32,000 bases of DNA from Candidatus Saccharimonadota bacterium (GTDB lineage Bacteria > Patescibacteriota > Saccharimonadia > Saccharimonadales > Saccharimonadaceae): contig DIRZ01000003.1 of the NCBI GenBank assembly GCA_002421785.1, positions 210,001 to 242,000 of the forward strand. Reading direction: 5' to 3'. Below, in pieces: positions 2,765 through 29,981 of this stretch. How positions within the stretch are numbered: the stretch's first letter is position 1; each line of letters starts with the position of its first letter. The notes beneath the pieces were generated by a model that saw nothing but the letters and a program-made list of their open reading frames with translations, did not search any database and had not been told where the DNA came from. Made by a program: the position numbers and the translations under genes.

Positions 2765-3451
2765 TTAGTGCACCACGCATTCCGCAACATATCGTTGCAT
2801 GATACGCCTGGCGGCATCCATCTCATCCGTCGTGAAGCTTGACGCACCCGCAAACTGCGTACTAACAGTTCGTCCGGCTACAAATTTTTGTAATGCATAA
2901 CGCTGGGCGCCCTTAACCAATTTACCGATACCTGTAAAATCGCTCACCTCAAGCTGCCCCGCAACAATGGTCGTTCTGAATTCATGGGGAACCGATTTGA
3001 TAATCCGAATGCTCTCCTGTATCGCATCTGTGTCGATGGGACGAGCTGCGATTTGTTGATACTTTTCGAGGGGCCCCTTAATGTCCATCGCAATGAAGTC
3101 TACCAATTGTTCGGTAATCAGCTTCTGCACCATACCCGGATTTGTGCCATTTGTATCTAACTTGACCCGGAGCCCCATAGCTTTAATCTTCGCGATAAAT
3201 TGCGGCAGATCCGCCTGCATTGTTGGTTCTCCGCCACTGATCGCCACCCCGTCGAGCTTGCCTACACGCGTTGCCAAAAACTCCAGTATCTCATGTTCAG
3301 GAATCGTATCAGCAAGCTGCTCCGGCAGCACAAGCTCTGGGTTGTGGCAGTAGCCGCAGCGCATATTGCAGCCAATCGTAAAGATACTAGCAACCACATA
3401 GCCGGGATAATCGACCGTACTAAACTTTACAATGCCGCCTATCGCTACCAT
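2765..3451 (-). CDS. nrdG: anaerobic ribonucleoside-triphosphate reductase activating protein (radical SAM)
   Basis: Radical-SAM CNMRCGYCHN motif close to the N-terminus (MVAIGGIVKFSTVDYPG...). The ATG at 3451 lies immediately after the nrdD stop (3453-3455). The 5' extension in the track ORF overlaps nrdD and was rejected. Confidence 0.85.
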   Translation of the reverse strand: MVAIGGIVKFSTVDYPGYVVASIFTIGCNMRCGYCHNPELVLPEQLADTIPEHEILEFLATRVGKLDGVAISGGEPTMQADLPQFIAKIKAMGLRVKLDTNGTNPGMVQKLITEQLVDFIAMDIKGPLEKYQQIAARPIDTDAIQESIRIIKSVPHEFRTTIVAGQLEVSDFTGIGKLVKGAQRYALQKFVAGRTVSTQFAGASSFTTDEMDAARRIMQRYVAECVVH

Positions 3452-3452
3452 A

Positions 3453-5549
3453 CTATCCTGCAACTTTGTCGTAGGTTTCACGCATAGCAAATTCTGCTTG
3501 CTTGCCCTTGTTCCACTGCTGTACTGGCCGCAAGAACCCGACCACACGCGAATACACCTCACATGGTTCGCCACATGTTGCACATGTTGCATTTTCGCCA
3601 GCCATGTAGCCATGATTCTTACACACACTAAAGCTCGGGCTAAAAGTAAAGTATGGCAACTTGTAGTTTTTACAAATCGTCTTTACAAGTCCCTTGAGTG
3701 CCTTGGCGTCCGCCATACGCTCGCCTAGGAAGAAGTGAATGACCGTTCCACCCGTATACTTTGTTTGCAACTCGTCCTGCAGGTCGAGCAGCTCAAACAA
3801 ATCATCGGTGTAATTTACCGGGAGGTGTGTGCTGTTGGTGTAAAATGGATGGTCAACCTGAGCGCCCAAACCATTCGCAAAATGCGCAGTTTTCGGATAA
3901 TCCTTTTTGTCGATTTGCGCCAAGCGGTAGGTAGTCCCTTCAGCCGGAGTTGCTTCGAGGTTATAATTGTTTCCTGTCTCTTTTTGGAATTCCAGCAGTG
4001 TGTCGCGCATATAATCAAGCGTTCGCTCAGCAAACTCCCTACCCTCGGGGCTTCCTATGTCGGCGCCAATTAGGTTAAGAGCGGCTTCATTCATGCCGAT
4101 TAGCCCAATGGTACTAAAGTGGTTCTTCCAGTACTGATTGAAGCGCTTCTTAATATCACGCAGGTAAAATTTTGTGTAAGGGTAAAGATTCGCATCTGTG
4201 AGTCGCTCTAGCGTCTTTCGCTTCACCTCAAGCGAATCCTTTGCTTTTTCCATCAGGTACGCGAGGCCAGCGCGAAACTCTGCCTCATCCTTGCTTTTAA
4301 GTGCAAGCCTAGGCAGGTTAATCGTTACGACGCCCACGCTTCCGGTCATCGGGTTACTTCCGAACAACCCACCACCACGATACTCGAGCTGACGATTATC
4401 GATACGCAACCGACAACACATACTTCGCGCATCTTCGGGGCTCATGTCGCTGTTCACAAAATTACTAAAGTACGGAATGCCATACTTGGCACTTGCTTCC
4501 CATAGATTTTCAATCACTGGATTATCCCAGTTGAAGTCAGGGGTAATGTTATAGGTTGGAATAGGGAACGTAAAGACTCGCCCATTCGCATCGCCCTCAC
4601 AGAGCACTTCAAGTAGCGCTTTGTTAAATATATCCATTTGCTTCTGGTGGTCATCGTAGTTCGTGTCAGCAATGTTGCCACCGATGATAACCGGTGTTCC
4701 CGCCATGTGCTTTGGACACTCGAGGTCGAGAGTGATGTTTGTGAACGGCGTCTGGAAACCAACTCGCGTTGGAACGTTAACATTAAACACGAACTCTTGT
4801 AGCGCTTGCTTTACTTCTTTGTAGGTAAGCTTATCGTAAGAAATAAATGGCGCGAGCAGTGTATCGAAGTTACTAAACGCCTGTGCACCAGCCGCCTCTC
4901 CTTGTAGGGTATAAAAGAAGTTAACCACTTGCCCGAGTGCTGTGCGGAAGTGCTTGGCAGGCCGGCTTGCCACTTTATTAGGCACACCAGTAAAGCCTTC
5001 GCGCAGGACGTCTGTTAGGTCCCATCCGACACAGTAGACACTAACAAGATTCAGGTCATGAATGTGCATGTCACCCTGCTTGTGCAGGCGACCAATTTCG
5101 GGGGTGTAGATTTTATTAAGCCAGTAGGTCTTGCTTACCTCGCTGCTCACATAGTTATTCAGACCTTGCAGGCTATAGTCCATATTGCTATTTTCGTTAA
5201 CGCGCCAATCGAGGCGCGACAAGTACTGGTCAATAAGATCTACATGTGTTGCATCAGAGATTTCACGAATCTTCTTGTGCTGATCACGATAAATAATATA
5301 TGCTTTTGCCGTCGCCTTATAGCGGCTATCAAGCAACACTTCTTCGACGATATCCTGAATTTGTTCAACCGTAGGCACTTTAGCGGCAATCTCTTTTTCT
5401 GCACGAGCGACTACCTGACCGGCCAATTTGCCTGCCTCGGTTTCCGCTAGTTCACCCGAGTCTAAGCCAGCACGCTCAATAGCGCTCATAATCTTTTGCT
5501 CGGTAAACTTAACGATTCTTCCGTCTCGTTTCTTAATCTTTGTATACAT
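3453..5549 (-). CDS. nrdD: anaerobic (class III) ribonucleoside-triphosphate reductase
   Basis: 698 aa. N-terminal ATP-cone (KIKKRDGRIVKFTEQKI), a C-terminal Cys-rich Zn site (CKNHGY...CATCGEPC) and a glycyl-radical motif (RVVGFLRPVQQWNKGK). Confidence 0.95.
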   Translation of the reverse strand: MYTKIKKRDGRIVKFTEQKIMSAIERAGLDSGELAETEAGKLAGQVVARAEKEIAAKVPTVEQIQDIVEEVLLDSRYKATAKAYIIYRDQHKKIREISDATHVDLIDQYLSRLDWRVNENSNMDYSLQGLNNYVSSEVSKTYWLNKIYTPEIGRLHKQGDMHIHDLNLVSVYCVGWDLTDVLREGFTGVPNKVASRPAKHFRTALGQVVNFFYTLQGEAAGAQAFSNFDTLLAPFISYDKLTYKEVKQALQEFVFNVNVPTRVGFQTPFTNITLDLECPKHMAGTPVIIGGNIADTNYDDHQKQMDIFNKALLEVLCEGDANGRVFTFPIPTYNITPDFNWDNPVIENLWEASAKYGIPYFSNFVNSDMSPEDARSMCCRLRIDNRQLEYRGGGLFGSNPMTGSVGVVTINLPRLALKSKDEAEFRAGLAYLMEKAKDSLEVKRKTLERLTDANLYPYTKFYLRDIKKRFNQYWKNHFSTIGLIGMNEAALNLIGADIGSPEGREFAERTLDYMRDTLLEFQKETGNNYNLEATPAEGTTYRLAQIDKKDYPKTAHFANGLGAQVDHPFYTNSTHLPVNYTDDLFELLDLQDELQTKYTGGTVIHFFLGERMADAKALKGLVKTICKNYKLPYFTFSPSFSVCKNHGYMAGENATCATCGEPCEVYSRVVGFLRPVQQWNKGKQAEFAMRETYDKVAG

Positions 5550-10394: not shown

Positions 10395-10469
10395 TGGGGT
10401 GTCGCCAAGTGGTAAGGCACTGGGTTCTGGTTCCAGCATTCGGGGGTTCGAATCCCTCCACCCCAGCCA
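10395..10469 (+). tRNA. tRNA-Gln (anticodon CTG)
   Basis: Manual cloverleaf. The sequence is close to E. coli tRNA-Gln, with anticodon loop ttCTGgt, T-loop ttcgaat and an encoded CCA. Confidence 0.9.
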
Positions 10470-12322: not shown

Positions 12323-12487
12323 ACCCCTAGTATAAGGCTTCTAAAGATTTTTTTACATTTTTTACAGAAACGCTTGCGTTAAAGAAACATAAGGTGTATT
12401 GTACTGATAGCGAAGTTACAAAAACAAACACACCAAAAAAACTTGTAGCATCTCGCTCTACGATATATCCACCACAACATATCTTTG

Positions 12488-12514
12488 AAATACCCCACAT
12501 CTCGTGGGGTATTT
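12488..12514 (-). terminator. hairpin downstream of trmD
   Basis: aaataccccac-atctc-gtggggtattt: an 11-bp stem with short U tails on both strands. Confidence 0.5.
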
Positions 12515-12529
12515 CGCTGATGTCAGGAG

Positions 12530-13183
12530 TTATTCTGCGCGTTTACTGTTTTGTGCCCGCCAGGCGGCGATATCAGCGTGATGACCGCTGAGTAGTACGG
12601 ATGGCACCTTACGGCCATTCCAGTCCTCTGGACGTGTATATTGTGGGAATTCAAGCGTCTCTCCATCACTGAAGCTCTCAATGCTGGCGCTTTCCGCCCC
12701 ACCCAGTACACCGGGGATTAGACGTACGATACTATCAATAATTGTCATCGCGGGCAATTCGCCGCCCGTCAGCACGTAATCACCGACGCTTAGCTCGGCA
12801 TCGATCAGCTCCAGTATACGCTCGTCATAGCCCTCGTAACGCCCGCACACAAATATATAGCCCTGCTCTGCCTCGCTGTACTCCTGTGCCATTGACTGCT
12901 TCCAGCGCTGCCCCCGTGGAGTCATTAGCAATACCTTCGCTTGGGGATCATTCTGCTTTGCCGCTGTGATTGCGTTCCATAGTGGCTCCACCATCAGCAA
13001 CATGCCGTCACCGCCACCATAGGGCGTATCGTCAACTTGTCGGCGCGGGCCCAGGCCGTATTCGCGTAAATCAACCGTCGACAGCTCCACAATACCGTCT
13101 TTTTGGGCCTTCCACATCATAGAATTGCCAAATACACCCTTAAACATGTCGGGAAATAAGGTGACTACTTGAAATTTTCTCAT
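12530..13183 (-). CDS. trmD: tRNA (guanine37-N1)-methyltransferase
   Basis: 217 aa. MRKFQVVTLFPDMF N-terminus, YGGGDGMLL, CGRYEGYDERI and VLTGGELPAM are typical TrmD blocks. Confidence 0.95.
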   Translation of the reverse strand: MRKFQVVTLFPDMFKGVFGNSMMWKAQKDGIVELSTVDLREYGLGPRRQVDDTPYGGGDGMLLMVEPLWNAITAAKQNDPQAKVLLMTPRGQRWKQSMAQEYSEAEQGYIFVCGRYEGYDERILELIDAELSVGDYVLTGGELPAMTIIDSIVRLIPGVLGGAESASIESFSDGETLEFPQYTRPEDWNGRKVPSVLLSGHHADIAAWRAQNSKRAE

Positions 13184-13203
13184 CTGTTATAGTATCGCAT
13201 GTA

Positions 13204-13232
13204 TTGACTTTTTTGTCTATATATGCTAATAT
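13204..13232 (+). promoter_or_regulatory. near-consensus sigma70 promoter of small GC3-rich ORF (module A)
   Basis: TTGACT (13204-13209), 17-nt spacer, TAATAT (13227-13232). Confidence 0.6.
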
Positions 13233-13288
13233 GTCGTTAGCTTTCGACACATTCCAGTCGACTGCGTCCCTACGAACAAGGAGAAAAG

Positions 13289-13543
13289 ATGCTCAATGCA
13301 GTCCTGGAGTACTGCTCACCAACGATGACCACACTCGCACTCCTGAGCAAGGAGCCCGACGAGAACGGGGTGATCGCACTCATCTTCAACTACATCCCGA
13401 CGTGGAAGCGGCCCCTGCTCAGGCTCCAGATCAAGAGGAACTTCCTCGTCAAGACGAAGAAGAAGGTCGAGGTACACTTCGACCGACTGATCATGCCTGG
13501 CGAGCCCCTCGCAACAGGCATACGCCTTGTGCCGCGGGCCTAA
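13289..13543 (+). CDS. orphan 84-aa protein with strongly GC3-biased codon usage
   Basis: aaggag RBS 6-7 nt upstream. By hand count about 70 of 84 codons end in G/C. No family recognised. Confidence 0.55.
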   Translation: MLNAVLEYCSPTMTTLALLSKEPDENGVIALIFNYIPTWKRPLLRLQIKRNFLVKTKKKVEVHFDRLIMPGEPLATGIRLVPRA

Positions 13544-13550
13544 GCCCTAA

Positions 13551-13651
13551 GCCCACCAAAAACTGCTTTGCCGAATTGGCTCGATCTGATTGAGAGACCT
13601 CGTTTCTCTCGGGTCGCCACAAACCCAATTCAGACGAGCCAATCGGTGGGC
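13551..13651 (+). other. about 100-nt highly structured element (complex terminator or ncRNA) after the 84-aa ORF
   Basis: Nested pairings: gcccacc/ggtgggc (outer), ccga(a)ttggctcg/cgagccaatcgg (12-13 bp) and gagaga-cctcgtt-tctctc (apical), followed by tatttt. An alternative pairing is gaattgg/ccaattc. Confidence 0.45.
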
Positions 13652-13687
13652 TATTTTCGTGCCCGAAATATGGTATTATATAAGCAC

Positions 13688-14020
13688 ATGGGTGAGGATT
13701 TTCAATCAACAACTACCAACGTAAGTGGGGTTACGGATGCGGAACGGCTTGAAGCTAGCACGCGACAAGTTTTCATTGCGCCCGTACATGATGACGTGGT
13801 CGCAGATGATTTGCCCGATGAGGTTATCGTCACCCGCCACCTCGTACAGCCACCAATCGGCAATATTCCTACCGACTCCGAATTAACCACTTCATCATCC
13901 GCACAGCAACACATCGACCAAAAAAATCACCGTTTTGCCCTGACTGTTAGCTTAGTCACGGTAGCTATCGTCAGTGGCGTATCGCTCGTCGCCTACCTGA
14001 CTGTCGCGCACCTTAGTTAA
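13688..14020 (+). CDS. tail-anchored hypothetical membrane protein (110 aa)
   Basis: Acidic N-terminal region plus a C-terminal TM (FALTVSLVTVAIVSGVSLVAYLTV). The ATG at 13688 lies 8 nt after an extended -10 (tggtattat, 13671-13679), so the mRNA may be leaderless. The track ORF starts earlier, at TTG 13568 inside the structured element. Confidence 0.45.
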   Translation: MGEDFQSTTTNVSGVTDAERLEASTRQVFIAPVHDDVVADDLPDEVIVTRHLVQPPIGNIPTDSELTTSSSAQQHIDQKNHRFALTVSLVTVAIVSGVSLVAYLTVAHLS

Positions 14021-14043
14021 CCCATCAATTTGCAGCCACCAAA

Positions 14044-14071
14044 AAACCCACTCTAATTTTGGAGTGGGTTT
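14044..14071. terminator. bidirectional rho-independent terminator
   Basis: aaacccactc-taattttg-gagtgggttt: a 10-bp stem between the convergent plus-strand ORF and the KH gene. Confidence 0.7.
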
Positions 14072-14150
14072 CTTAGACATATAAGGCTCTCAAACCTTGT
14101 GGTTTGCTCGCATGAGCTGGTTCAGTGTTCTCGCATTGAACTGTTTATGA

Positions 14151-14579
14151 TTATATATCGAGGTCGTCTAGTTCCGCAAGCTCTTTGCGAGACTTTTTTG
14201 CGAAGTCCGATTCTTCAGGTTCGTCGTTATCCACACTTACAGCGGTTGAATTATCCACAACGTCTACTATTTCGCCATCTTCGGTCGCCGCGTCATCGCT
14301 TGAAATAACAGTTGATTCGTCAGGATTGTCGTTATTGACGATCTTTAAGTTGTACCTCGCAGCGTTTTTTGTCCCAAGCGCACGAAGCAACGTGCGCAAG
14401 CTTTGCGCCGTAACGCCACGCCGGCCAATCACTCGGCCAAGATCTTCTGGGTTTACGGTCAGTGTGAGTAGCACACCTTTTTCGTCAACAATGCGGTCAA
14501 CGATAACGTCGTCCGGGTTGCCGACAAGTGATTTTACGATATATTCTACGAATTGCTGGTCAATAGTTGACATGCCCAC
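14151..14579 (-). CDS. KH-domain RNA-binding protein (KhpA/YlqC-like) with long acidic C-terminal tail
   Basis: The N-terminal 75 aa (LVGNPDDV...GRVIGRRGVTAQSLRTLL) match the UPF0109/KhpA KH fold and the usual position after rpsP. The extra 60 aa or so are D/E-rich. Confidence 0.8.
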   Translation of the reverse strand: MGMSTIDQQFVEYIVKSLVGNPDDVIVDRIVDEKGVLLTLTVNPEDLGRVIGRRGVTAQSLRTLLRALGTKNAARYNLKIVNNDNPDESTVISSDDAATEDGEIVDVVDNSTAVSVDNDEPEESDFAKKSRKELAELDDLDI

Positions 14580-14666
14580 TGGTCTCCTTTTCTGTCTCTC
14601 TGTTAGTATCGTACGCCTTTATTGTATCACGGTTTTACATTTCTCAGAATTGCGCGTTATATAGCT

Positions 14667-14689
14667 AAAACCCCCGGCATCGCCAGGGG
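14667..14689 (-). terminator. hairpin/attenuator between rpsP and KH gene
   Basis: On the minus strand: cccctgg-cgatg-ccggggg followed by tttt. Confidence 0.5.
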
Positions 14690-14711
14690 TTAAAAATATA
14701 CAGCGAATTGA

Positions 14712-15086
14712 TTATTCAGCCGCGACTTCTGCTAGCGCTTCGGCTGCAGGTGCTTCAACAACTTCTTCTTTCGGCTGGTTTTTGCGTAGCTTTTCAGCAT
14801 TGCGAATAGGCTTCTGTTTGTCCTCAGATGCTTGTTTGACCCATTTTGGAAGCTTCACGCCTGCTGTCTTAAGGAGCTTAACGACACGTGGAGTTGGCTG
14901 TGCGCCGTTGTCAAGGAACTTCTGCGCTTCCTCAACCTGAACATTTGCTTCTTTTGTGTGTGGGTTGTAGCTACCAACATAGGCAACAACACGTCCACTG
15001 CTAGGATGGCGCTGTGACTCTTGCACGGCGAGGCGATAAACTGGATATCCCTTGCGGCCAAGGCGTTGCAAACGAATTGCGAGCAT
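14712..15086 (-). CDS. rpsP: 30S ribosomal protein S16 (with Lys/Ala/Glu-rich C-terminal extension)
   Basis: MLAIRLQRLGRKGYPVYRLAVQESQ... is a canonical S16 N-terminus. Confidence 0.95.
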   Translation of the reverse strand: MLAIRLQRLGRKGYPVYRLAVQESQRHPSSGRVVAYVGSYNPHTKEANVQVEEAQKFLDNGAQPTPRVVKLLKTAGVKLPKWVKQASEDKQKPIRNAEKLRKNQPKEEVVEAPAAEALAEVAAE

Positions 15087-15144
15087 AAAATCTAATTTTC
15101 CTTCTTTATTACTTCACTTATAGGTTGTTTTTTACTTCTGTACC

Positions 15145-15173
15145 ATTTTACACTTTTTTTACAGTAGTGTCAA
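15145..15173 (-). promoter_or_regulatory. consensus sigma70 promoter of rpsP
   Basis: On the minus strand: TTGACA (15173..15168), 17-nt spacer, TAAAAT (15150..15145). Confidence 0.6.
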
Positions 15174-15177
15174 TCTG

Positions 15178-15894
15178 TTATTTGCTTTGACGCTTTTCAT
15201 ACGTCTGCAGGGCGGCACGGGCGGCTTCTTGCTGCGCATTCTGCTTACTAGGCCCAACACCTTTGCCCATAAGCTGTCCATTGACATATGCTCCCAGTGT
15301 AAACACTTTGTCGTGATCCGGGCCAACCTCTTCGATAACTTTATATAGTGGTGTCGCACCATCAACTCGCTGGCTGACTTCCTGTAGGTGGCTCTTCGGG
15401 TCGCGCCACGTGCCTTCGTTCAGAATAACCTCAAGCTTACTGATGATGTGCGTGTGAATGAACACACTGGCGGCATCGTAGCCTTGGTCGAGATAGATTG
15501 ATCCGATGGTAGCCTCGAACGCGTTTGCCAGTATCTGTAGTCGAGCACGTGGAGTGCCGTTCTTTTCACCCCTACTCATACGGACAAGTGACTCGTACCC
15601 TAGTTTGTCACCTGCTGCACCGATACTTTCCGTGCGCACCAAAGCAGCACGCCAACTGGTCAATATACCTTCTGGCTCGGTAAAGGTCCTGAACAAATAG
15701 TCAGTTACAACCAGCTCGAGCACAGCGTCACCTAGGAATTCCAGTCGTTCATTGTGGTCGGTCACGCTTTTTTTGTGCTCATTCACATAGCTACGGTGCG
15801 TCAATGCCGTAATAAGTAGCTGAATATCCTTAAATTCAAACCCGAGCTTTTCGCGCGCAAAATCTTGGTAAGGGCCGATGGGCATCCCTGTCAT
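15178..15894 (-). CDS. rnc: ribonuclease III
   Basis: RNase III signature NERLEFLGDAVLELVV plus a C-terminal dsRBD. Confidence 0.95.
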   Translation of the reverse strand: MTGMPIGPYQDFAREKLGFEFKDIQLLITALTHRSYVNEHKKSVTDHNERLEFLGDAVLELVVTDYLFRTFTEPEGILTSWRAALVRTESIGAAGDKLGYESLVRMSRGEKNGTPRARLQILANAFEATIGSIYLDQGYDAASVFIHTHIISKLEVILNEGTWRDPKSHLQEVSQRVDGATPLYKVIEEVGPDHDKVFTLGAYVNGQLMGKGVGPSKQNAQQEAARAALQTYEKRQSK

Positions 15895-16383
15895 TTATAG
15901 TTTCTCCTGCCGAATCCGCTTCATAGCGAGCAGCATTAATTTACCAATGTCTTCATATTCAATCAGGTCGAGCGCCTCACTAAACGGAAACCACCTGATT
16001 CCGTTCATCCATTCTTCTTTTTGGATTTCGTTACCATCAGAACGGACTCGTACCAAATAAATCTGGGTCGTCATGAGCACGAGCCGGTCGATACGGCGGT
16101 ATCGAAAGTGGATCTTGCCCAACCATCCCAACATATCAAGCTGGTGCAAGCCGGTTTCTTCGCCAATTTCACGGCGGGCAGTGTCGACAGCCTTCTCGCC
16201 GTCTTCAATGTGCCCTTTAGGAATCGTCCAACGGTCCTTAGCGTCCTGAATCAACAGGATCTCGATGCCATCTTTCCCGTGGCGAAATACGATGCCACCA
16301 CTCGTGGGTTCGCGGACGATTTCCTGAATTGAAGCCTTTGGTTTAAAATATTTCTTGAATTTATCAAGCTTCGGCGCTGGCAT
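15895..16383 (-). CDS. NUDIX hydrolase
   Basis: Nudix box [23 protein letters not shown] prefer the ATG at 16383 (MPAPKLDKF), which overlaps the nusB 3' end by 20 nt. The stop abuts the rnc start. Confidence 0.8.
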
Positions 16384-16825
16384 TGTCTGGTTTCTCCTCC
16401 ACAAGCGTCCTAAATGCAGTGCCGAGCACTCCATTTATAAACTTGCTTGAGTTATCAGAACCAAATGCTTTGGCGAGTTCAACAGCTTCGTTGATAGCGA
16501 CCTTCGGCGGTACTTTATCACCACGGAAGAGTAGTTCATACAAGCCCAGCCGCAATACAGTACGATCAATACGAGAAATCTGCTCAATCGGCCATTCTGG
16601 CGCAATTGGTTGAATCTTTGCATCGAGACCCGGCTGCTCTTGCACAACGCCAGTCACTAAATCTTTCACGAAATCAGTGTCATCAATCGCCGTTTCGTAT
16701 CGCTCTAGGTTACGAGTCAGTACTTCGTCGGCGTCCACAGAAGTATCGCCTGCCTGCAAGCGGAACTCATACTCATACAGAGTTTGAAGTGCGACGATGC
16801 GTCCTAAGTGACGGTTACTTGCCAT
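16364..16825 (-). CDS. nusB: transcription antitermination factor NusB
   Basis: [13 protein letters not shown]...[14 protein letters not shown]... are typical NusB blocks. Confidence 0.9.
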
Positions 16826-16876
16826 TGTCTCTTGGTTCTTTCTTTGTTAATATCCACCCTAACAGAGGTAGACGTG

Positions 16877-17053
16877 CTACTTCTTGGTAACGGTTTCTTT
16901 TTTGACTGCTTTAAGCTTTTTGCCAGTTTCGTTCTTGGTTGTCTTAACCTTGACAGGTGATTTTGCGTTCACACGACGTGCGAGCTCAAGTACAAGGTGG
17001 CTGCGGCGTAGACCGGTTTTGCGCGGGCTCGACTGCTTCTTTGGCTGTGCCAT
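16877..17053 (-). CDS. rpmF: 50S ribosomal protein L32
   Basis: Manual translation gives MAQPKKQSSPRKTGLRRSHLVLELARRVN... (58 aa), with the L32 signature MAxPKxKxSxxRxxxRRSH and a ggagaa RBS. It falls below the ORF-track length cutoff. Confidence 0.85.
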   Translation of the reverse strand: MAQPKKQSSPRKTGLRRSHLVLELARRVNAKSPVKVKTTKNETGKKLKAVKKETVTKK

Positions 17054-17094
17054 GAAATGTTCTCCTTTTTCGGATTCTAATAAAACTTAGTGTT

Positions 17095-17123
17095 ATTATA
17101 CCTCAGTTTGACTGGCAACTCAA
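17095..17123 (-). promoter_or_regulatory. candidate promoter of rpmF
   Basis: On the minus strand: TTGAGT, 17-nt spacer, TATAAT. Confidence 0.5.
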
Positions 17124-17159
17124 TACATTGACAAATATTAGTTATAGCGCTTATGTATA

Positions 17160-17188
17160 TTGACTTATAGTAATACTTATGCTATAAT
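17160..17188 (+). promoter_or_regulatory. consensus sigma70 promoter of small GC3-rich ORF (module B)
   Basis: TTGACT (17160-17165), 17-nt spacer, TATAAT (17183-17188). The flanks resemble the module A promoter. Confidence 0.6.
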
Positions 17189-17242
17189 GTTATTGTTAGG
17201 CACTTCGTCTAACCCTCGTACTTCCCCAATCCGAAGGAAAAC

Positions 17243-17548
17243 ATGTTCACGAACATCGTCATCACCCTGGCCTTCCTCGCCCTCGAGTTCGGCGTACTGC
17301 ACCTGTGCTACAGGTACAACACCCCTCTCGCGCGGCGACAGTACTCGGTCGCCGTCTTCGGAGCAATGGCGCTCCTCAGCCTCGGCAGCTACTGGTTGTC
17401 GCCCATCCGTGGCGCCGACTTCGTAGGTGATGTGCTGATGCCCAACCTGTGGCTCGGATGGATCAACATGATCCTCCTGGCCCTCTACATGATCGCCCTG
17501 GTCATCCGGGGCATCAAGAAGTACGGGCTCACCCCCGCCTCATTGTAG
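17243..17548 (+). CDS. orphan 101-aa membrane protein with extreme GC3 codon usage
   Basis: 3 predicted TM segments. By hand count about 90 of 101 codons end in G/C. It sits between its own promoter and terminator. No family recognised. Confidence 0.55.
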   Translation: MFTNIVITLAFLALEFGVLHLCYRYNTPLARRQYSVAVFGAMALLSLGSYWLSPIRGADFVGDVLMPNLWLGWINMILLALYMIALVIRGIKKYGLTPASL

Positions 17549-17569
17549 GCGGGGGTTTCCCCTTTTTGA
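17532..17569 (+). terminator. rho-independent terminator
   Basis: cccccgcc-tcattgta-ggcggggg followed by tttcccctttttg. The ORF stop codon lies within the hairpin. Confidence 0.7.
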
Positions 17570-17576
17570 GGCCAGG

Positions 17577-20012
17577 TTAGGCAACAATGCTGACGAGTTT
17601 GCCGGTAATGTAGATGACTTTCTTCGGTTCGCTAACAACAAATTTCTTTACATTTTCGTCCGCAAGGGCGAGCTTTTTAATTTCATCTTCGGCCGTATCT
17701 TTTGCCACGTCCAGTTTCGCGCGCAACTTACCATTAACTTGCACGATGATTGTCATCGTATCACCGGTTAGATACTGCTTATCCCATTGTGGCCAGCTGT
17801 CCTTTTGGGCGCTGGTTTCGTGGCCAAGGTCATGCCACAGCTCATCGGCCATATGTGGGGCAAACGGCGCCACAAGCGCGACCAAACTGTCCAGCGCAAA
17901 CTGCCAGCTATTGCCGCCAGCAAACCCCTTTGCCTTGAGAGCATACAAGCCGTTGGTGCATTCCATCATGGCGGCGATTGCCGTATTATACTTTTGGTCT
18001 TCTAGGTCGGCAGTTACTTTACGAATAGCCGGGTGGATCGTTCGCAGCACCTCAACGTTCTGTTCGTCATCGTGCCCAGCCTCTAGAAATTCCTGTACCA
18101 AGTTCCATATGCGATTGAGGAAACGATAGGTTCCGGGCACTCCCTGTGGGTCCCAACGAGCCCAGACGTCGAGCGGTGCAGCGAACATCAGGTAGGTACG
18201 AAGCGAATCGGCGCCATAGCCGCTGTTGATGATTTCGAGCGGATCAACACCATTACCCTTGCTCTTACTAAACATCGTTCCATCACTCGCAGTCACTTTA
18301 CCGTTAAACAGGAACTTCTTGAACGGCTCCGGGTTTTCTACGAGACCCTGGTGCCAGAAGAACCTGGTCATAAAGCGCGCATACATCATGTGCGCAGTGG
18401 CGTGATCACCACCGTTATAGAAATCAATCGGCATCCACTTGTTTGCAATCGCACTATCAAAGATGCGAGATTCATTGGCGCCGTCCAGGTAGCGCAGGAA
18501 GTACCAGCTACTGCAGATGTACGTGTCGAGCGTATCAGTTTCGCGCGTTGCAGGGCCGCCACAGGTCGGACATGTCGTATTCATCCACTCTGTCGCTCGT
18601 GCGAGCGCACTTCGCCCGTCGCCACTCGGCGCAAAATCGTCAAGCAAAGGCAGCTCAACAGGTAGTTGCTCGTCAGGAACAAGCACGGTGCCGTCTTTTT
18701 CGCAGTGAATAATCGGAATTGGCGCACCCCAGTATCGCTGACGACTCACGCTCCAGTCGCGGACTTTATAGGTCGTTTTGGCTGCGCCCCGCTGTTCTTG
18801 CTCGAGCCATGCCACAATCTCTTCGCGGGCATCGCTGCTCGCCATGCCGTCATAGTGGCCACTATTCATTAGTGGTCCCTCGCCGTGATAACACTGCTCG
18901 GCTACATCATGCGGCTTAGTCACTACTTCGATAATCGGTAGGTTGAACTTCTCGGCAAATTCAAAGTCACGCTCGTCGTGCGCCGGCACTGCCATAATTG
19001 CACCCGTGCCGTAACCGCTCAGCACATAGTCGGCCACCCATATAGGTACCTTCGCACCGGTCGCAGGATTAATCGCATACGAACCAGTTGCAATACCCGT
19101 CTTTTCTTTCGTTTCCTGGCGTTCTAGCTCACTCTTCTTCAAGCTATCTTTCACATACGCCATCACTGCGTCGCGGGTGCCGTCATTCACCAATTGCTCC
19201 ACCAGTTCGTGCTCTGGGGCAATTACAAGGAACGTCGCACCAAACAACGTGTCGGGGCGAGTCGTAAACACCGTAACAGCGTCATCGCGACCATCGAGAG
19301 CGAATTCCACCTCTGCGCCAACGCTTTTACCAATCCAGTTCTTCTGTGCGGCCTTTACTACTTCACTCCAGTCAAGCGCATCTGTCGCCTCGAGCATTTC
19401 ATCGGCATACTCAGTAACCTTAAAGAACCACTGCTTCACTTCTTTTTTGGCGACTTCAGGGTCATCAACGCTATCATGCCGCCAGCATTTTCCATCAATC
19501 ACTTGCTCATTAGCAAGCACGGTTTGGCACTTTGTACACCACCACTGCATACGTGAATCCTGGTATGCCAGGCCCGCCCGATACATTTCACTAAATATCC
19601 ACTGCGTCCATTTGTAATAGACGGGCAAATGCGTACTGATTTCCTTGCTCCAGTCGTTACTCCAGCCCATCGCTTTGTACTGCGTATGATAGCTAGGAAT
19701 AATCTTTGCCATACTTTCCTGGGGCGAAATACCGCTTTTAATGGCAAAGTTTTCGGCCGGTAGTCCAAATGCATCCCAGCCTACAGGGTGATAACTCTCG
19801 TATCCTTGCTGTCGCTTAAATCGTGCCATCACGTCACTAATGGTATAGTTCATCGCATGCCCAATGTGGATACCAGCCCCACTAGGGTAGTTAAACATGC
19901 TCATGGCGATGTATTTTTGCTTATCGGACGATAGGTCCGCACGGTAAACCTGTTGTTCATCCCAGGCTTGCTGCCACTTTGGCTCAATTTCAGTTGGATT
20001 ATAGCGCTTCAT
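17577..20012 (-). CDS. leuS: leucine--tRNA ligase
   Basis: 811 aa. HIGH-type motif (SGAGIHIGHAMNY), KMSKS-type motif (MFSKSKGN) and a CP1 editing domain. Confidence 0.97.
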   Translation of the reverse strand: MKRYNPTEIEPKWQQAWDEQQVYRADLSSDKQKYIAMSMFNYPSGAGIHIGHAMNYTISDVMARFKRQQGYESYHPVGWDAFGLPAENFAIKSGISPQESMAKIIPSYHTQYKAMGWSNDWSKEISTHLPVYYKWTQWIFSEMYRAGLAYQDSRMQWWCTKCQTVLANEQVIDGKCWRHDSVDDPEVAKKEVKQWFFKVTEYADEMLEATDALDWSEVVKAAQKNWIGKSVGAEVEFALDGRDDAVTVFTTRPDTLFGATFLVIAPEHELVEQLVNDGTRDAVMAYVKDSLKKSELERQETKEKTGIATGSYAINPATGAKVPIWVADYVLSGYGTGAIMAVPAHDERDFEFAEKFNLPIIEVVTKPHDVAEQCYHGEGPLMNSGHYDGMASSDAREEIVAWLEQEQRGAAKTTYKVRDWSVSRQRYWGAPIPIIHCEKDGTVLVPDEQLPVELPLLDDFAPSGDGRSALARATEWMNTTCPTCGGPATRETDTLDTYICSSWYFLRYLDGANESRIFDSAIANKWMPIDFYNGGDHATAHMMYARFMTRFFWHQGLVENPEPFKKFLFNGKVTASDGTMFSKSKGNGVDPLEIINSGYGADSLRTYLMFAAPLDVWARWDPQGVPGTYRFLNRIWNLVQEFLEAGHDDEQNVEVLRTIHPAIRKVTADLEDQKYNTAIAAMMECTNGLYALKAKGFAGGNSWQFALDSLVALVAPFAPHMADELWHDLGHETSAQKDSWPQWDKQYLTGDTMTIIVQVNGKLRAKLDVAKDTAEDEIKKLALADENVKKFVVSEPKKVIYITGKLVSIVA

Positions 20013-22016: not shown

Positions 22017-22243
22017 GTGCTTTTCCTTTCTTTTACCGCTGAGTTATAAAAAACGGCCAGCGAATTAATAGATAATTCGTAGCCGCAATGGTCGCTTATT
22101 GTAAAGCCGCTGTCCTACATACTCAGTATGCGCCTGCGATGTCTGCAATGCAAGTGCACTTTTGCACGAAGTACCGGGCGACTGTAAACATTTTCATAGT
22201 CAAACGGCTCATATGCGGTTATGATGAGGACAAAAGGAGTTAT

Positions 22244-22546
22244 ATGATAGCAAGTATTATTTATGCAATTGGTGGTTTTATAGAAGCACTTGTTGGTTTA
22301 CGGTTCGTACTACGGCTCGTAGGGGCAAACCCTGACAATGCGCTTGTCAGCTGGATTTATGCATGGAGCACACCGTTCGTTGCGCCATTTTCGGGTATTT
22401 TCGGCCAAGACGCCACTATTGTTAGTGGCGTAGGTGCCGTGACGACAAGCGTGTTCGATTGGACCGCCCTCGTCGCGCTGATCGTCATTGGTATCGTCGT
22501 GGGGATTATTGGCTCCTTGCTTGGCCGTCACTACGCAGTACGATAA
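22244..22546 (+). CDS. YggT-family membrane protein
   Basis: The ATG at 22244 is preceded by aaaggag. FIEALVGLRFVLRLVGANP...PFSGIFG is typical of YggT. The longer track ORF (from 22088) has no RBS. Confidence 0.65.
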   Translation: MIASIIYAIGGFIEALVGLRFVLRLVGANPDNALVSWIYAWSTPFVAPFSGIFGQDATIVSGVGAVTTSVFDWTALVALIVIGIVVGIIGSLLGRHYAVR

Positions 22547-29228: not shown

Positions 29229-29981
29229 ATGGACATGGTAAAAAATACTAACCAAAAAATGAGTAAGCCAAAGATATACACGCTCGCAATTGCAGTTGTG
29301 CTGGCAGTGGGTGGAGTCGCGTCATACGTGTTAATCTCATCTCATACCGCAAATGACCAGACGAATAAGAGGGGGCAAGTTGTGGTGGCGCAGCAAGGAG
29401 ATAGAGAGTATAACGCATATGCAAGCATTTCTGACAGTGACATTCAACGCACAGGAAGTGATGTTGACTTTATGTGGAAGCCTGAGCTATATCCCATTGT
29501 GGCACTAGTTCATATTGATTCGATTGATGGTGGGCGAACGTACAGTCCGGTTTATGAGCAATATGTCGCTCCGCATACCTATGGCAAGATGACTGTTAAA
29601 GAAGCATACCGTGGCGATGTAAAGCTCGGACAAGAATTGAACTACGCGCGTCTTGGTGGAACAGTGACGTATGAAGACTACTGGAAGAGTCTGAATAAAC
29701 AGCAGCAAGATAAGATTCTTCACTTGAATAATGGTAAGCAACCTGCCCACAAAAAATATGTTAAGGCCACAATCTCCGATGACATTGATATAGAGTCGGG
29801 CAAGGACTATGTCGCTTTTATTTCGCCGCAATCTTCTAAGGACGGAAAAGTTACAGAATATATCATTGGCGGATACCAGCTCGGCCTTAGAGAAGTTAAG
29901 GGATCGGGTGCCGATGCTACAGTCCTCAATAATAGCACTAAGCAGTGGGATAAACTAGATAGTGTCATAAAACAAGACTAA
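29229..29981 (+). CDS. membrane-anchored orphan protein co-transcribed with the protease
   Basis: RBS aaggaaggaag, starting 16 nt after the protease stop. N-terminal TM (IYTLAIAVVLAVGGVASYVLI) followed by a soluble domain of about 210 aa. No family recognised. Confidence 0.6.
   Translation: MDMVKNTNQKMSKPKIYTLAIAVVLAVGGVASYVLISSHTANDQTNKRGQVVVAQQGDREYNAYASISDSDIQRTGSDVDFMWKPELYPIVALVHIDSIDGGRTYSPVYEQYVAPHTYGKMTVKEAYRGDVKLGQELNYARLGGTVTYEDYWKSLNKQQQDKILHLNNGKQPAHKKYVKATISDDIDIESGKDYVAFISPQSSKDGKVTEYIIGGYQLGLREVKGSGADATVLNNSTKQWDKLDSVIKQD

What the first reader, a model, noticed from the sequence alone, without database searches (positions are those of the whole stretch)
17160..17569. Second GC3-extreme orphan (101-aa, 3-TM protein) in a self-contained promoter-ORF-terminator module between rpmF and leuS (module B)
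By hand count about 90 of 101 codons end in G or C. This is the most biased coding segment in the window.

The unit is complete and insulated:
- consensus promoter TTGACT-17-TATAAT
- 54-nt leader
- ORF
- GC hairpin terminator whose stem contains the stop codon

It is inserted on the plus strand between two minus-strand core genes. It shares a divergent promoter region with rpmF. The protein (MFTNIVITLAFLALEFGVLHLCY...) is a small polytopic membrane protein with no recognisable family. The promoter-leader similarity to module A is described under the finding at 13204-13543.
Basis: partly seen in the sequence, partly recalled or inferred. Interest (0 to 1): 0.65.

Follow-up and report, generated by a model that had tools for sequence, protein, structure and literature searches.

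The report
Small membrane gene with extreme GC3
A real, fast-evolving gene for a 101-residue three-helix membrane protein, found only in one subgroup of the tiny parasitic Saccharibacteria, keeps about 90% G or C at its silent codon positions in a 49% GC genome, and that bias is actively maintained rather than left over from a recent foreign insertion.

Summary
ORF 17243-17548 has 90 of 101 G/C-ending codons (GC3 0.89). That is 9.5 SD above 31 window genes. It has a full-consensus extended -10 promoter, a Shine-Dalgarno site, and a -21 kcal/mol hairpin terminator that holds the stop codon.

The interpretation needs correcting:
- The window is from a Saccharibacteria genome.
- The gene is not a singleton orphan or a recent insert. 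It belongs to a tiny family of 89-101 aa proteins (8 clusters among 1.84 billion representatives).
- In every locus fetched for the family, the gene lies between rpmF and leuS.
- Promoter, 5'UTR and terminator are conserved, but the protein falls to about 27% identity between subtypes.
- The divergent promoter beside rpmF is older still. At least 11 distant species have it, and there it drives unrelated ORFs with ordinary GC3.

GC3 stays at 0.74-0.95 in all orthologs although leuS synonymous sites are saturated between the clades. Synonymous sites of the gene evolve slowly, and A/T variants are rare alleles. No donor, phage, plasmid or family match exists.

Sister strains carry further small GC3-rich genes in other slots. 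A neighbouring hypervariable gene with normal GC3 argues against simple explanations. Protein function and the cause of the bias remain unresolved.

The parts
17095..17123 (-). Promoter-like site for rpmF (TTGAGT-17-TATAAT). It forms the other half of the divergent promoter region.
   Evidence: Consensus scan, 10/12 matches; sequence read.
17160..17188 (+). Promoter of the small gene: -35 TTGACT (17160-17165), TG at 17180-17181, -10 TATAAT (17183-17188).
   Evidence: It is conserved in all orthologous loci. It is also present in the same spacer in distant Saccharibacteria.
17189..17242 (+). Leader / 5'UTR (46% GC) with Shine-Dalgarno GAAGGA at 17233-17238.
   Evidence: The stretch cgtacttccccaaYccgaagga is conserved between the 101-aa and 97-aa subtypes. 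It shows no Rfam match and no significant fold.
17243..17548 (+). ORF of 101 aa with GC3 0.89. It encodes a three-helix small membrane protein of a family restricted to one Saccharibacteria subclade.
17531..17567 (.). GC hairpin (17531-17540 / 17547-17556) plus U-tract (17556-17567). It overlaps the last four codons (TPAS) and the stop codon. It lies 21 nt from the leuS stop codon and is probably a shared bidirectional terminator.
   Evidence: An equivalent hairpin of -20 to -24 kcal/mol is present in every ortholog folded.
16877..17053 (-). rpmF (ribosomal protein L32), the left flank. It is transcribed divergently from the small gene.
   Evidence: 100% identical in the strains L002-L005.
17577..20012 (-). 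leuS, the right flank. It is convergent with the small gene.
13204..13657 (+). Module A, a second unit of the same type.
- Promoter 13204-13232.
- ORF 13289-13543 (84 aa, GC3 0.83).
- Long hairpin 13550-13657 followed by TATTTT.
It is strain-variable.
   Evidence: It is absent in L002/L004 and present at 62% aa identity in L096.
13688..14020 (+). orf110, the control gene. It is a hypervariable plus-strand tail-anchored membrane protein with ordinary GC3 (0.50).
   Evidence: window versus L002 gives aa identity 0.63, dN 0.24 and pS 0.89.

Best explanation
This is a native, expressed, monocistronic gene of a Saccharibacteria (TM7) genome.

**Anatomy**
- An old, strong, extended -10 promoter sits about 100 nt upstream of rpmF and fires away from it.
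- In this subclade that promoter drives a lineage-specific protein of about 100 aa with three transmembrane helices. The predicted topology is N-out/C-in, from the positive-inside rule.
- Transcription ends in a GC hairpin shared with the convergent leuS. The hairpin's 5' arm encodes the conserved C-terminal T-P-A-S.

**Evolution of the protein**
- The protein evolves very fast. dN is about 7-10 times that of leuS, and identity between subtypes is about 27%.
- Alleles look recombined.
- It is still under purifying selection.
- This fits an envelope or host-interface (or phage-interface) component better than a housekeeping part.

**The GC3 bias**
- GC3 of about 0.9 is not a relic of recent transfer.
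- A fixation bias towards G/C-ending codons holds it there. The bias acts on this gene and on a few other small, strongly promoted, strain-variable genes of the clade.
- My preferred cause is gene-specific selection on the mRNA or codons, for example transcript stability or translation of short, heavily expressed monocistronic messages.

**Shown versus inferred**
- Shown: gene reality, family, conservation of position and signals, persistence of GC3, and constraint on synonymous sites.
- Inferred: expression level, topology, envelope role, and the cause of the bias.
For: **The gene is real**
- The reading frame is intact in more than 20 distinct sequences from independent assemblies.
- Promoter, SD and terminator are conserved.
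- dN/dS is mostly 0.3-0.6.

**It is native and old**
- It has the same position and strand in the window clade, in the 97-aa clade (L008, L093-95) and in the 95-aa form (L086). LeuS identity across these runs from 75% to 98%.
- The subfamilies align by hhalign at E 2.4e-5.
- The promoter slot is conserved in at least 11 distant species.

**GC3 is maintained**
- GC3 is 0.87-0.95 in eight 101-aa alleles, 0.88-0.93 in the 97-aa forms and 0.74 in the 95-aa form.
- leuS pS between the clades is 0.77-0.82, which is saturated.
- Synonymous sites of the gene are slow:
  - window versus L002: modB pS 0.17, leuS dS 0.50, orf110 pS 0.89;
  - L093 versus L094: B97 dS 0.58, with leuS saturated.
- Third-position variants: 24 have a G/C major allele and an A/T minor allele, against 5 the other way round. 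12 are G<->C swaps.

**No foreign origin detected**
- The profile search of 1.84 billion representatives returned only 8 clusters, all 89-101 aa.
- There were no hits in phages, plasmids or IMG/VR.
- Serine codon family usage (AGY 18/31) resembles the native genes.

**Other simple causes are disfavoured**
- Ribosomal protein genes have GC3 of 0.42-0.53.
- orf110 is a plus-strand hypervariable neighbour with GC3 0.50.
- The same strong promoter drives low-GC3 ORFs in other lineages.
Against: - No expression data exist, so promoter strength is inferred from consensus alone.
- No specific mRNA structure was found beyond composition. Synonymous-codon-shuffle z-scores run from +0.25 to -2.3 and are inconsistent across orthologs.
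- The 5'UTR is not GC-rich (0.46). A pure transcript-stability model would not predict that.
- The polymorphism test uses 8 unpolarised metagenome alleles.
- Some apparent recombination may come from strain-mixed assemblies.
- Nothing indicates the protein's function. The AF2 model is of low confidence (pLDDT 65).
- Genomic context could not be fetched for the most divergent family members (P0019-P0024).
Confidence: 0.45

Rival explanations
1. GC-biased gene conversion at a hyper-recombining, diversifying locus. Saccharibacteria are naturally competent. Frequent heteroduplex formation between divergent alleles, repaired with a bias towards G:C, would drive every weakly constrained site of the variable ORF to G/C. 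The invariant promoter, UTR and terminator would be left untouched.
For: - 451 of 1035 informative site pairs show all four gametes, and protein segments look shuffled among alleles.
- Divergence around the locus is mosaic. For window versus L002, rpmF-rnc dS is 0-0.04 while leuS, rpsP and murE-like give 0.5-0.8.
- G<->C swaps are common and no single codon per amino acid is preferred.
- A/T variants are minor alleles.
- GC enrichment stops at the borders of the variable ORF.
- Competence is documented in Saccharibacteria (PMC10187176).
- A recombination-GC3 association is documented in bacteria (PMC4450053).
Against: - orf110 lies next to module A and is even more divergent between the same strains. 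Its GC3 is 0.50 and its synonymous sites are saturated.
- GC1 and GC2 of the fast-evolving protein are not raised (0.54/0.39).
- The reported bacterial gBGC effect is slight (R2 = 0.087 for rho versus GC3 in S. pyogenes, PMC4450053). Here the shift is 40 points.
- The recombination signal may partly be an assembly artefact.
Confidence: 0.2
2. A legacy of horizontal transfer from a high-GC donor. Candidates are the actinobacterial hosts of Saccharibacteria, or their phages, taken up by natural transformation. The foreign ORF would have been captured between a resident promoter and a resident terminator.
For: - Atypical composition in strain-variable accessory genes is the classical signature of transfer.
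- Module A is present in the window and L096 but absent in L002/L004.
- Other GC3-rich units come and go between strains:
  - C58 and D48/65 in L093/94;
  - a 145-aa lipoprotein in L001/L003/L007 that replaces a non-homologous window gene.
- The preference for C-ending codons resembles high-GC bacteria (the comparison rests on my own knowledge).
- Competence is documented (PMC10187176).
Against: - No homologue outside the small family appears among 5.8 billion and 1.84 billion sequences, or in phage, plasmid and viral collections.
- Module B is vertically conserved with co-diverging promoter, UTR and terminator. GC3 has not ameliorated although neighbouring synonymous sites are saturated.
- Its synonymous sites are slower than the neighbours', not relaxing towards them.
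- Serine codon family usage looks native.
- No mobility genes, tRNA targets or terminal repeats lie at the unit.
Confidence: 0.15
3. A local mutational bias. A strongly transcribed gene lying head-on to replication (the plus strand has negative GC skew) would have a GC-biased mutation spectrum.
For: - All GC3-rich units lie on the strand opposite to the housekeeping genes, and the plus strand has negative GC skew.
- dN is elevated.
- C3 exceeds G3 in all alleles.
Against: - dS is lower than in the neighbours, not higher.
- The 24:5 excess of rare A/T variants is not expected at mutational equilibrium.
- Other plus-strand genes (orf110; 22088-22546; 29229-29981) have ordinary GC3.
- The same promoter slot in other lineages gives GC3 below the genome mean.
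Confidence: 0.05

Closest known systems
Lineage-specific small membrane proteins (bacterial small-protein ORFans)
   Same: - About 100 aa and hydrophobic, with no curated family.
- Monocistronic with its own promoter and terminator.
- Restricted to a narrow clade and fast evolving.
   Different: - Silent-site composition is extreme and persistent (GC3 about 0.9 in a 49% GC genome).
- Several such units occur in neighbouring intergenic slots.
- The slot's promoter and terminator are much older than the ORF.
Compositionally atypical horizontally acquired genes (amelioration model)
   Same: - Codon usage is far from the host genome.
- Some units (module A, C58, D48/65) are strain-variable.
   Different: - The gene is GC-richer, not AT-richer, than the core genome.
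- No donor was found.
- Module B is inherited vertically.
- The bias does not decay over saturating divergence, and synonymous sites are constrained.
GC-biased gene conversion in recombining bacterial genes (PMC4450053)
   Same: - GC enrichment is concentrated at third positions.
- It involves G- and C-ending codons regardless of optimality.
- There are signs of recombination among alleles.
   Different: - The magnitude (+0.4 GC3) is far beyond reported effects.
- A neighbouring hypervariable gene is unaffected.
Class I holins (three TM helices, N-out/C-in, about 100 aa, basic C-terminus)
   Same: Size, number of predicted helices, predicted topology and a basic C-terminal tail (RGIKKY).
   Different: - No endolysin or phage genes nearby.
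- No PHROG or Pfam holin match.
- Chromosomal position between rpmF and leuS is conserved.
- The promoter looks constitutive.
Type I toxin-antitoxin toxins (Hok, TisB, Fst-like)
   Same: Small hydrophobic protein encoded in an intergenic region with a strong terminator.
   Different: - Three helices and 101 aa, against one helix and under 60 aa.
- No antisense promoter-like site was found inside or beside the ORF.
- No Rfam antitoxin RNA was found.

Membership tests
Any curated protein family (Pfam, NCBIfam, PHROGs, PADLOC, PDB sequences) | Score above the family's curated cut-off or a significant E-value | tested here: not met
   - Best hits are 10-19 bits against cut-offs of 25-100.
- They are scattered over unrelated hydrophobic families.
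- No family is matched by more than 2 of 14 members.
Recently acquired foreign gene | Codon usage atypical for the recipient genome | tested here: met
   GC3 is 0.89 against 0.508 +/- 0.04.
Recently acquired foreign gene | Homologues in a plausible donor lineage | tested here: not met
   - Only 8 clusters of 89-101 aa proteins were found among 1.84 billion representatives.
- Nothing was found in phages, plasmids or IMG/VR.
Recently acquired foreign gene | Patchy presence among close relatives; composition decaying towards the host's with time | tested here: not met
   - Module B is present at the same site in every relative fetched with LeuS at least 75% identical.
- GC3 is 0.74-0.95 although leuS pS is 0.77-0.82 between the clades.
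- Module A, by contrast, is patchy.
Recently acquired foreign gene | Flanking mobility genes, tRNA target or terminal repeats | tested here: not met
   - The neighbours are rpmF, nusB, leuS and a Mur ligase, with no integrase or transposase.
- The nearest tRNA genes are at 10395 and 22777.
Sigma-70 promoter / intrinsic terminator transcription unit | -35 and -10 hexamers at 17 nt spacing; GC hairpin followed by a U-tract | tested here: met
   - The promoter matches 11/12 of the consensus, plus TG.
- The pattern is unique to the two modules in the window.
- The hairpin has dG -21.3 kcal/mol and z -4.8, with a U-rich tail.
Sigma-70 promoter / intrinsic terminator transcription unit | Mapped transcript ends | not testable with these tools
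   No RNA data are available.
Class I holin | Three transmembrane helices, N-out/C-in, charged C-terminus | tested here: inconclusive
   - There are three hydropathy peaks and three AF2 helices, but pLDDT is only 65.
- Topology comes from the positive-inside rule only (inference).
Class I holin | Phage or lysis-cassette context (adjacent endolysin) or a match to a holin family | tested here: not met
   - The context is housekeeping genes in all loci.
- There is no significant PHROG match.
Type I toxin-antitoxin | Toxin under about 60 aa with a single TM helix; overlapping or adjacent antisense RNA with its own promoter | tested here: not met
   - The protein is 101 aa with three helices.
- No minus-strand promoter-like site lies between 17189 and 17600.
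- There is no Rfam hit.
gBGC-affected recombining gene (sensu PMC4450053) | Evidence of recombination within the gene | tested here: met
   The four-gamete test gives 451/1035 incompatible site pairs among 8 alleles. Caveat: these are metagenome assemblies.
gBGC-affected recombining gene (sensu PMC4450053) | GC enrichment follows recombination or variability generally, not gene identity | tested here: not met
   orf110 is a hypervariable neighbour (aa identity 0.63, pS 0.89) with GC3 0.50-0.54.
gBGC-affected recombining gene (sensu PMC4450053) | Fixation bias W->S in a polarised frequency spectrum | tested here: inconclusive
   The unpolarised major/minor count of 24 versus 5 points in the expected direction, but it rests on 8 sequences.

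The most novel reading that the evidence does not exclude
One Saccharibacteria subclade keeps a set of 'slot genes'. These are small, strain-variable envelope genes placed between resident strong promoters and resident terminators. Their silent sites are driven to about 90% G/C by a locus-specific force. That force would be either gene conversion bias of a strength never documented in bacteria, or selection for a codon or mRNA property tied to life on high-GC actinobacterial hosts. A still more extreme version, which I put at no more than 5%, is that the host-like codon usage exists because these genes are translated in, or with components taken from, the host cell.
Probability: 0.2. Interest if true: 0.8.

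Novelty: new variant of a known kind. Interest (0 to 1): 0.52.

Why it matters
**What this locus separates**
- Atypical codon usage is routinely read as a mark of recent horizontal transfer.
- Here the bias is as strong as any foreign gene's.
- Yet the gene is vertically inherited, has no detectable donor, and its bias persists across saturating divergence while its synonymous sites are constrained.

**What would follow if the cause is identified**
- It would either give the clearest bacterial case of a GC-favouring fixation bias acting gene by gene, or reveal an unknown layer of selection on silent sites in ultra-small episymbionts.

**Wider leads**
- The fast-evolving, strongly promoted small membrane proteins are plausible players at the parasite-host or parasite-phage interface of Saccharibacteria. 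Very few molecular components of that interface are known.
- The 'old promoter, replaceable ORF' arrangement next to rpmF is a tidy natural example of gene turnover within a fixed regulatory slot.

Tried and rejected
**Searches that found nothing**
- Pfam, NCBIfam, PHROGs, PADLOC and PDB-sequence searches of the window protein, subtype representatives and the whole alignment gave only sub-threshold hydrophobic noise.
- Rfam on 12500-18200 found no match.
- tblastn against phages and plasmids, and a scan of IMG/VR, found nothing. This covered modules A and B, the D65 protein and the GC3-rich lipoprotein.

- The single metagenome scan used the conserved 5'UTR 15-mer CGTACTTCCCCAAYC.

**Structure tests**
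- Specific mRNA structure as the cause of the bias is rejected as a general explanation. Synonymous-codon shuffles give inconsistent z-scores, from +0.25 to -2.3. The significant dinucleotide-shuffle z-scores mostly reflect the terminator and base composition.
- RNAalifold on an ungapped terminator alignment mis-paired the arms. Folding each hairpin separately was used instead.
- The AF2 model was too weak (pLDDT 65) to justify a fold search.

**Explanations rejected**
- Translational selection for optimal codons: rpsP and rpmF have GC3 of 0.42 and 0.53.
- An antisense gene: antisense ORFs are short and not conserved.
- An assembly artefact: the gene recurs in many independent assemblies.

**Literature**
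- Searches found no prior description of GC3-rich genes in Saccharibacteria.
Full report
**1. What is in the sequence**

The window has 48.9% GC.
- Its gene content is trmD, a KH-domain gene, rpsP, rnc, a NUDIX gene, nusB, rpmF, leuS and a Mur ligase gene.
- LeuS has its best matches in Candidatus Saccharibacteria MAGs: 87% identity to UBA1944 and 75% or less to all others.
- Together these place the window in Saccharibacteria (TM7).
- It comes from an 812,921-bp contig.

ORF 17243-17548 on the plus strand encodes 101 aa.
- Exactly 90 of its 101 sense codons end in G or C. GC1/2/3 = 0.54/0.39/0.89.
- Thirty-one reference genes of the window have GC3 0.508 +/- 0.04, so z = 9.5.
- Back-translating the protein 100,000 times with the window's codon usage gives 53.5 +/- 4.75 G/C-ending codons, and never more than 72.

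The enrichment is confined to the ORF and terminator.
- The promoter is 21% GC, the 5'UTR 46% and the ORF 61%.
- The adjacent end of leuS has GC3 0.57-0.64 and rpmF has 0.53.

- The promoter TTGACT-17-TATAAT with an upstream TG lies at 17160-17188.
- The stricter pattern TTGACW-N13-16-TGNTAWWAT occurs only at modules A and B in 32 kb. Zero matches are expected from shuffles.
- The Shine-Dalgarno sequence GAAGGA is at 17233-17238.
- A 10-bp GC hairpin (17531-17540 / 17547-17556; -21.3 kcal/mol; z -4.8) is followed by UUUCCCCUUUUU. The stop codon straddles the loop and the 3' arm.
- A minus-strand promoter-like site for rpmF lies at 17123-17095.

**2. The gene is real and belongs to a small family**

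- The first homology search found ten relatives at 75-94% identity.
- The contigs that carry them show the same arrangement, rpmF | gene | leuS.
- None of 80 species-representative Saccharibacteria genomes gave a tblastn hit.
- Even so, two of them have an ORF on the same strand in the same gap:
  - L008 (UBA1944): 97 aa, GC3 0.93.
  - L086 (UBA1949): 95 aa, GC3 0.74.
- These ORFs align to the window protein at 27-31% identity and share a K-Y-G-x-T/A-P-A C-terminus.
- Profile searches added more 97-aa forms and intermediates (P0012-P0024). In total there are only 8 clusters at 50% identity among 1.84 billion representatives, all 89-101 aa.
- hhalign between the 101-aa and 97-aa subfamilies gives E = 2.4e-5 over 79 columns.
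- The non-coding signals are much better conserved than the protein. These are the promoter (tatattgactt...tatgctataat), the 5'UTR (cgtacttccccaaYccgaagga) and the terminator hairpin.
- Every ortholog folded has a -20 to -24 kcal/mol hairpin over its last codons. The conserved C-terminal T-P-A-S is therefore at least partly the footprint of the terminator's 5' arm.
- Pfam, NCBIfam, PHROGs, PADLOC and PDB give nothing significant.
- AlphaFold2 predicts three helices at low confidence (pLDDT 65). Hydropathy has three peaks.
- The basic loop (residues 24-34) and basic tail suggest N-out/C-in. This is an inference.

**3. The slot is older than the gene**

- The consensus extended -10 promoter recurs on the equivalent strand, 77-182 nt upstream of rpmF.
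- It does so in at least 11 distant Saccharibacteria: L012, L014, L016, L017, L021, L022, L025, L031, L032, L048 and L060.
- There it precedes unrelated ORFs of 60-220 aa, mostly single-helix, with GC3 of 0.32-0.48.
- So a strong promoter divergent from rpmF is an ancient resident of this spacer. The ORF it drives has turned over, and the three-helix GC3-rich gene is the occupant in one subclade.

**4. The GC3 bias is maintained, not inherited passively**

- All eight 101-aa alleles have GC3 0.87-0.95, with C3 0.58-0.64. The 97-aa forms have 0.88-0.93.
- Between these clades the synonymous sites of leuS and rnc are saturated (pS 0.77-0.83). Unconstrained foreign composition would therefore have decayed.
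- Within pairs of strains, the gene's synonymous sites are slower than the neighbours':

| Pair | GC3-rich gene | Comparison genes |
|---|---|---|
| window vs L002 | module B pS 0.17, dS 0.20 | leuS dS 0.50; orf110 pS 0.89 |
| L093 vs L094 | 97-aa gene dS 0.58 | leuS and orf110 saturated |
| window vs L096 | module A dS 0.63 | trmD dS 2.3 |

- Nonsynonymous change, in contrast, is fast. dN is 0.06-0.19 against 0.011-0.015 for leuS, and dN/dS is mostly 0.3-0.6.
- Among third-position variants, 24 have a G/C major allele and an A/T minor allele, 5 are the reverse, and 12 are G<->C swaps.
- A/T mutations therefore arise but stay rare. Any G- or C-ending codon appears acceptable.
- The bias holds in two-fold and four-fold codon families alike.

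**5. It is one of a class**

- Module A (13204-13657; ORF 13289-13543; 84 aa; GC3 0.83) has the same build.
  - It is absent from strains L002 and L004.
  - It is present at 62% identity in L096.
- In the sister clade, two further small plus-strand genes have GC3 0.74-0.83:
  - a 58-aa two-helix protein between the MauE-like gene and trmD;
  - a 48-65-aa soluble protein between the KH-domain gene and rpsP.
- Each of these has its own promoter and ends at a hairpin.
- The empty sites in the window and L002 contain the hairpin only.
- Strains L001, L003 and L007 carry a 145-aa lipoprotein with GC3 0.79. It sits where the window has a non-homologous gene with GC3 0.48.
- Such outliers are rare. 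About 1 Mb of leuS neighbourhoods from other Saccharibacteria gave only one other candidate (L045). A further 10 kb of the window's own genome gave none.

**6. Explanations weighed**

| Explanation | Main evidence against |
|---|---|
| Recent transfer | No donor; vertical conservation; no decay of the bias; native-looking serine codon usage (AGY 18/31) |
| Translational optimisation | rpsP GC3 0.42 and rpmF GC3 0.53 |
| Specific RNA structure | Synonymous-shuffle z-scores inconsistent |
| Head-on mutation bias | Low dS; the 24:5 asymmetry; ordinary plus-strand neighbours |

Biased gene conversion is the most serious rival.
- In its favour:
  - The four-gamete test gives 451 of 1035 incompatible site pairs.
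  - Divergence around the locus is mosaic.
  - G and C are interchangeable at third positions.
  - Saccharibacteria are naturally competent (PMC10187176).
- Against it:
  - orf110 is a plus-strand hypervariable gene beside module A. It has ordinary GC3 and saturated synonymous sites.
  - GC1 and GC2 are not raised.
  - The effect would be far larger than the slight association reported for bacteria (PMC4450053).

I therefore favour a gene-specific fixation bias of unresolved cause. The most likely form is selection on the codons or mRNA of a few heavily expressed short monocistronic genes. gBGC is the main alternative.

**7. Function**

- Nothing identifies the function.
- Several features fit an envelope component exposed to a changing partner such as the host surface or a phage:
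  - small size and three helices;
  - a strong constitutive-looking promoter;
  - rapid but constrained protein evolution;
  - apparent allele shuffling;
  - restriction to one clade of an episymbiont.
- Holin and type I toxin readings fail their context tests. This function assignment is an inference.

**8. Verdict**

- The 'inserted orphan' reading is only partly right.
- The protein family is new but small.
- The persistent, constrained GC3 extreme in a native gene is unusual and unexplained.
- I rate the finding moderately interesting.

Noticed in passing
window 12530-17053 versus L002: Divergence between two strains is mosaic. The rpmF-nusB-NUDIX-rnc stretch is almost identical (dS 0-0.04). 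The flanking rpsP, KH-domain gene, leuS and Mur ligase gene have dS 0.5-0.8. This suggests a recent recombination or sweep of about 1.6-2 kb that ends beside the small gene.
   Followed up: partly
window 13688-14020 (+): orf110 is a tail-anchored 110-aa protein with a conserved acidic middle (DDLPDE...QP.IGNIP.DSE) and a C-terminal helix. It is extremely divergent between strains (63% identity where LeuS is 97%) and has saturated synonymous sites. This looks like ancient allelic lineages.
   Followed up: partly
L007 550-3315; L093 8329-11097: LeuS is 921-922 aa in some strains against 811 aa in the window and others. The extra segment has a weak ASCH-domain hit. In L003 the leuS region appears disrupted or poorly assembled.
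   Followed up: no
L001 5281-5718, L007 5553-5990, L003 7877-8317 versus window 22088-22546: The slot after the HD-domain gene holds non-homologous lipoprotein-like genes in different strains. Both carry a CGYD lipobox-like motif. One has GC3 0.79 and the other 0.48.
   Followed up: partly
L093 3236-3412 and 5240-5386; L094 3195-3371 and 5191-5388: Two more small GC3-rich genes (58 aa with two helices; 48-65 aa soluble) have their own promoters. They are placed against pre-existing hairpin terminators. They are absent from the window, where only the hairpins remain at 12485-12510 and about 14670-14695.
   Followed up: partly
leuS-rpmF gaps of L010, L023, L027, L029-L031, L042, L044, L048 and others: In other Saccharibacteria the same slot holds ORFs of 120-240 aa with one predicted helix. 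Several share a C-terminal motif resembling ...ALSDGLQ.HE(T/S)I.IPE(S/N)V. This is a different, apparently ancestral occupant family. Pfam gave no hit for the two tested.
   Followed up: no
L045 11570-11968 (-): This was the only other strong GC3 outlier (132 aa, GC3 0.83) in about 1 Mb of other Saccharibacteria leuS neighbourhoods. It has no Pfam match.
   Followed up: no
window 13550-13657: A long compound hairpin downstream of module A (-51.8 kcal/mol, z -4.9) ends in GGTGGGCTATTTT. It is conserved in L096 and has no Rfam match.
   Followed up: no
P0006 / L091 863-1225: One allele has GTG in place of the ATG start. Gene callers therefore extended the ORF 19 codons into the 5'UTR, giving 120 aa.
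   Followed up: no
window 3453-5549, 2765-3628: The window carries an anaerobic ribonucleotide reductase (NrdD) and its radical-SAM activase. It also carries four tRNA genes: Gln-CTG, Gly-GCC, Phe-GAA and Gly-CCC.
   Followed up: no
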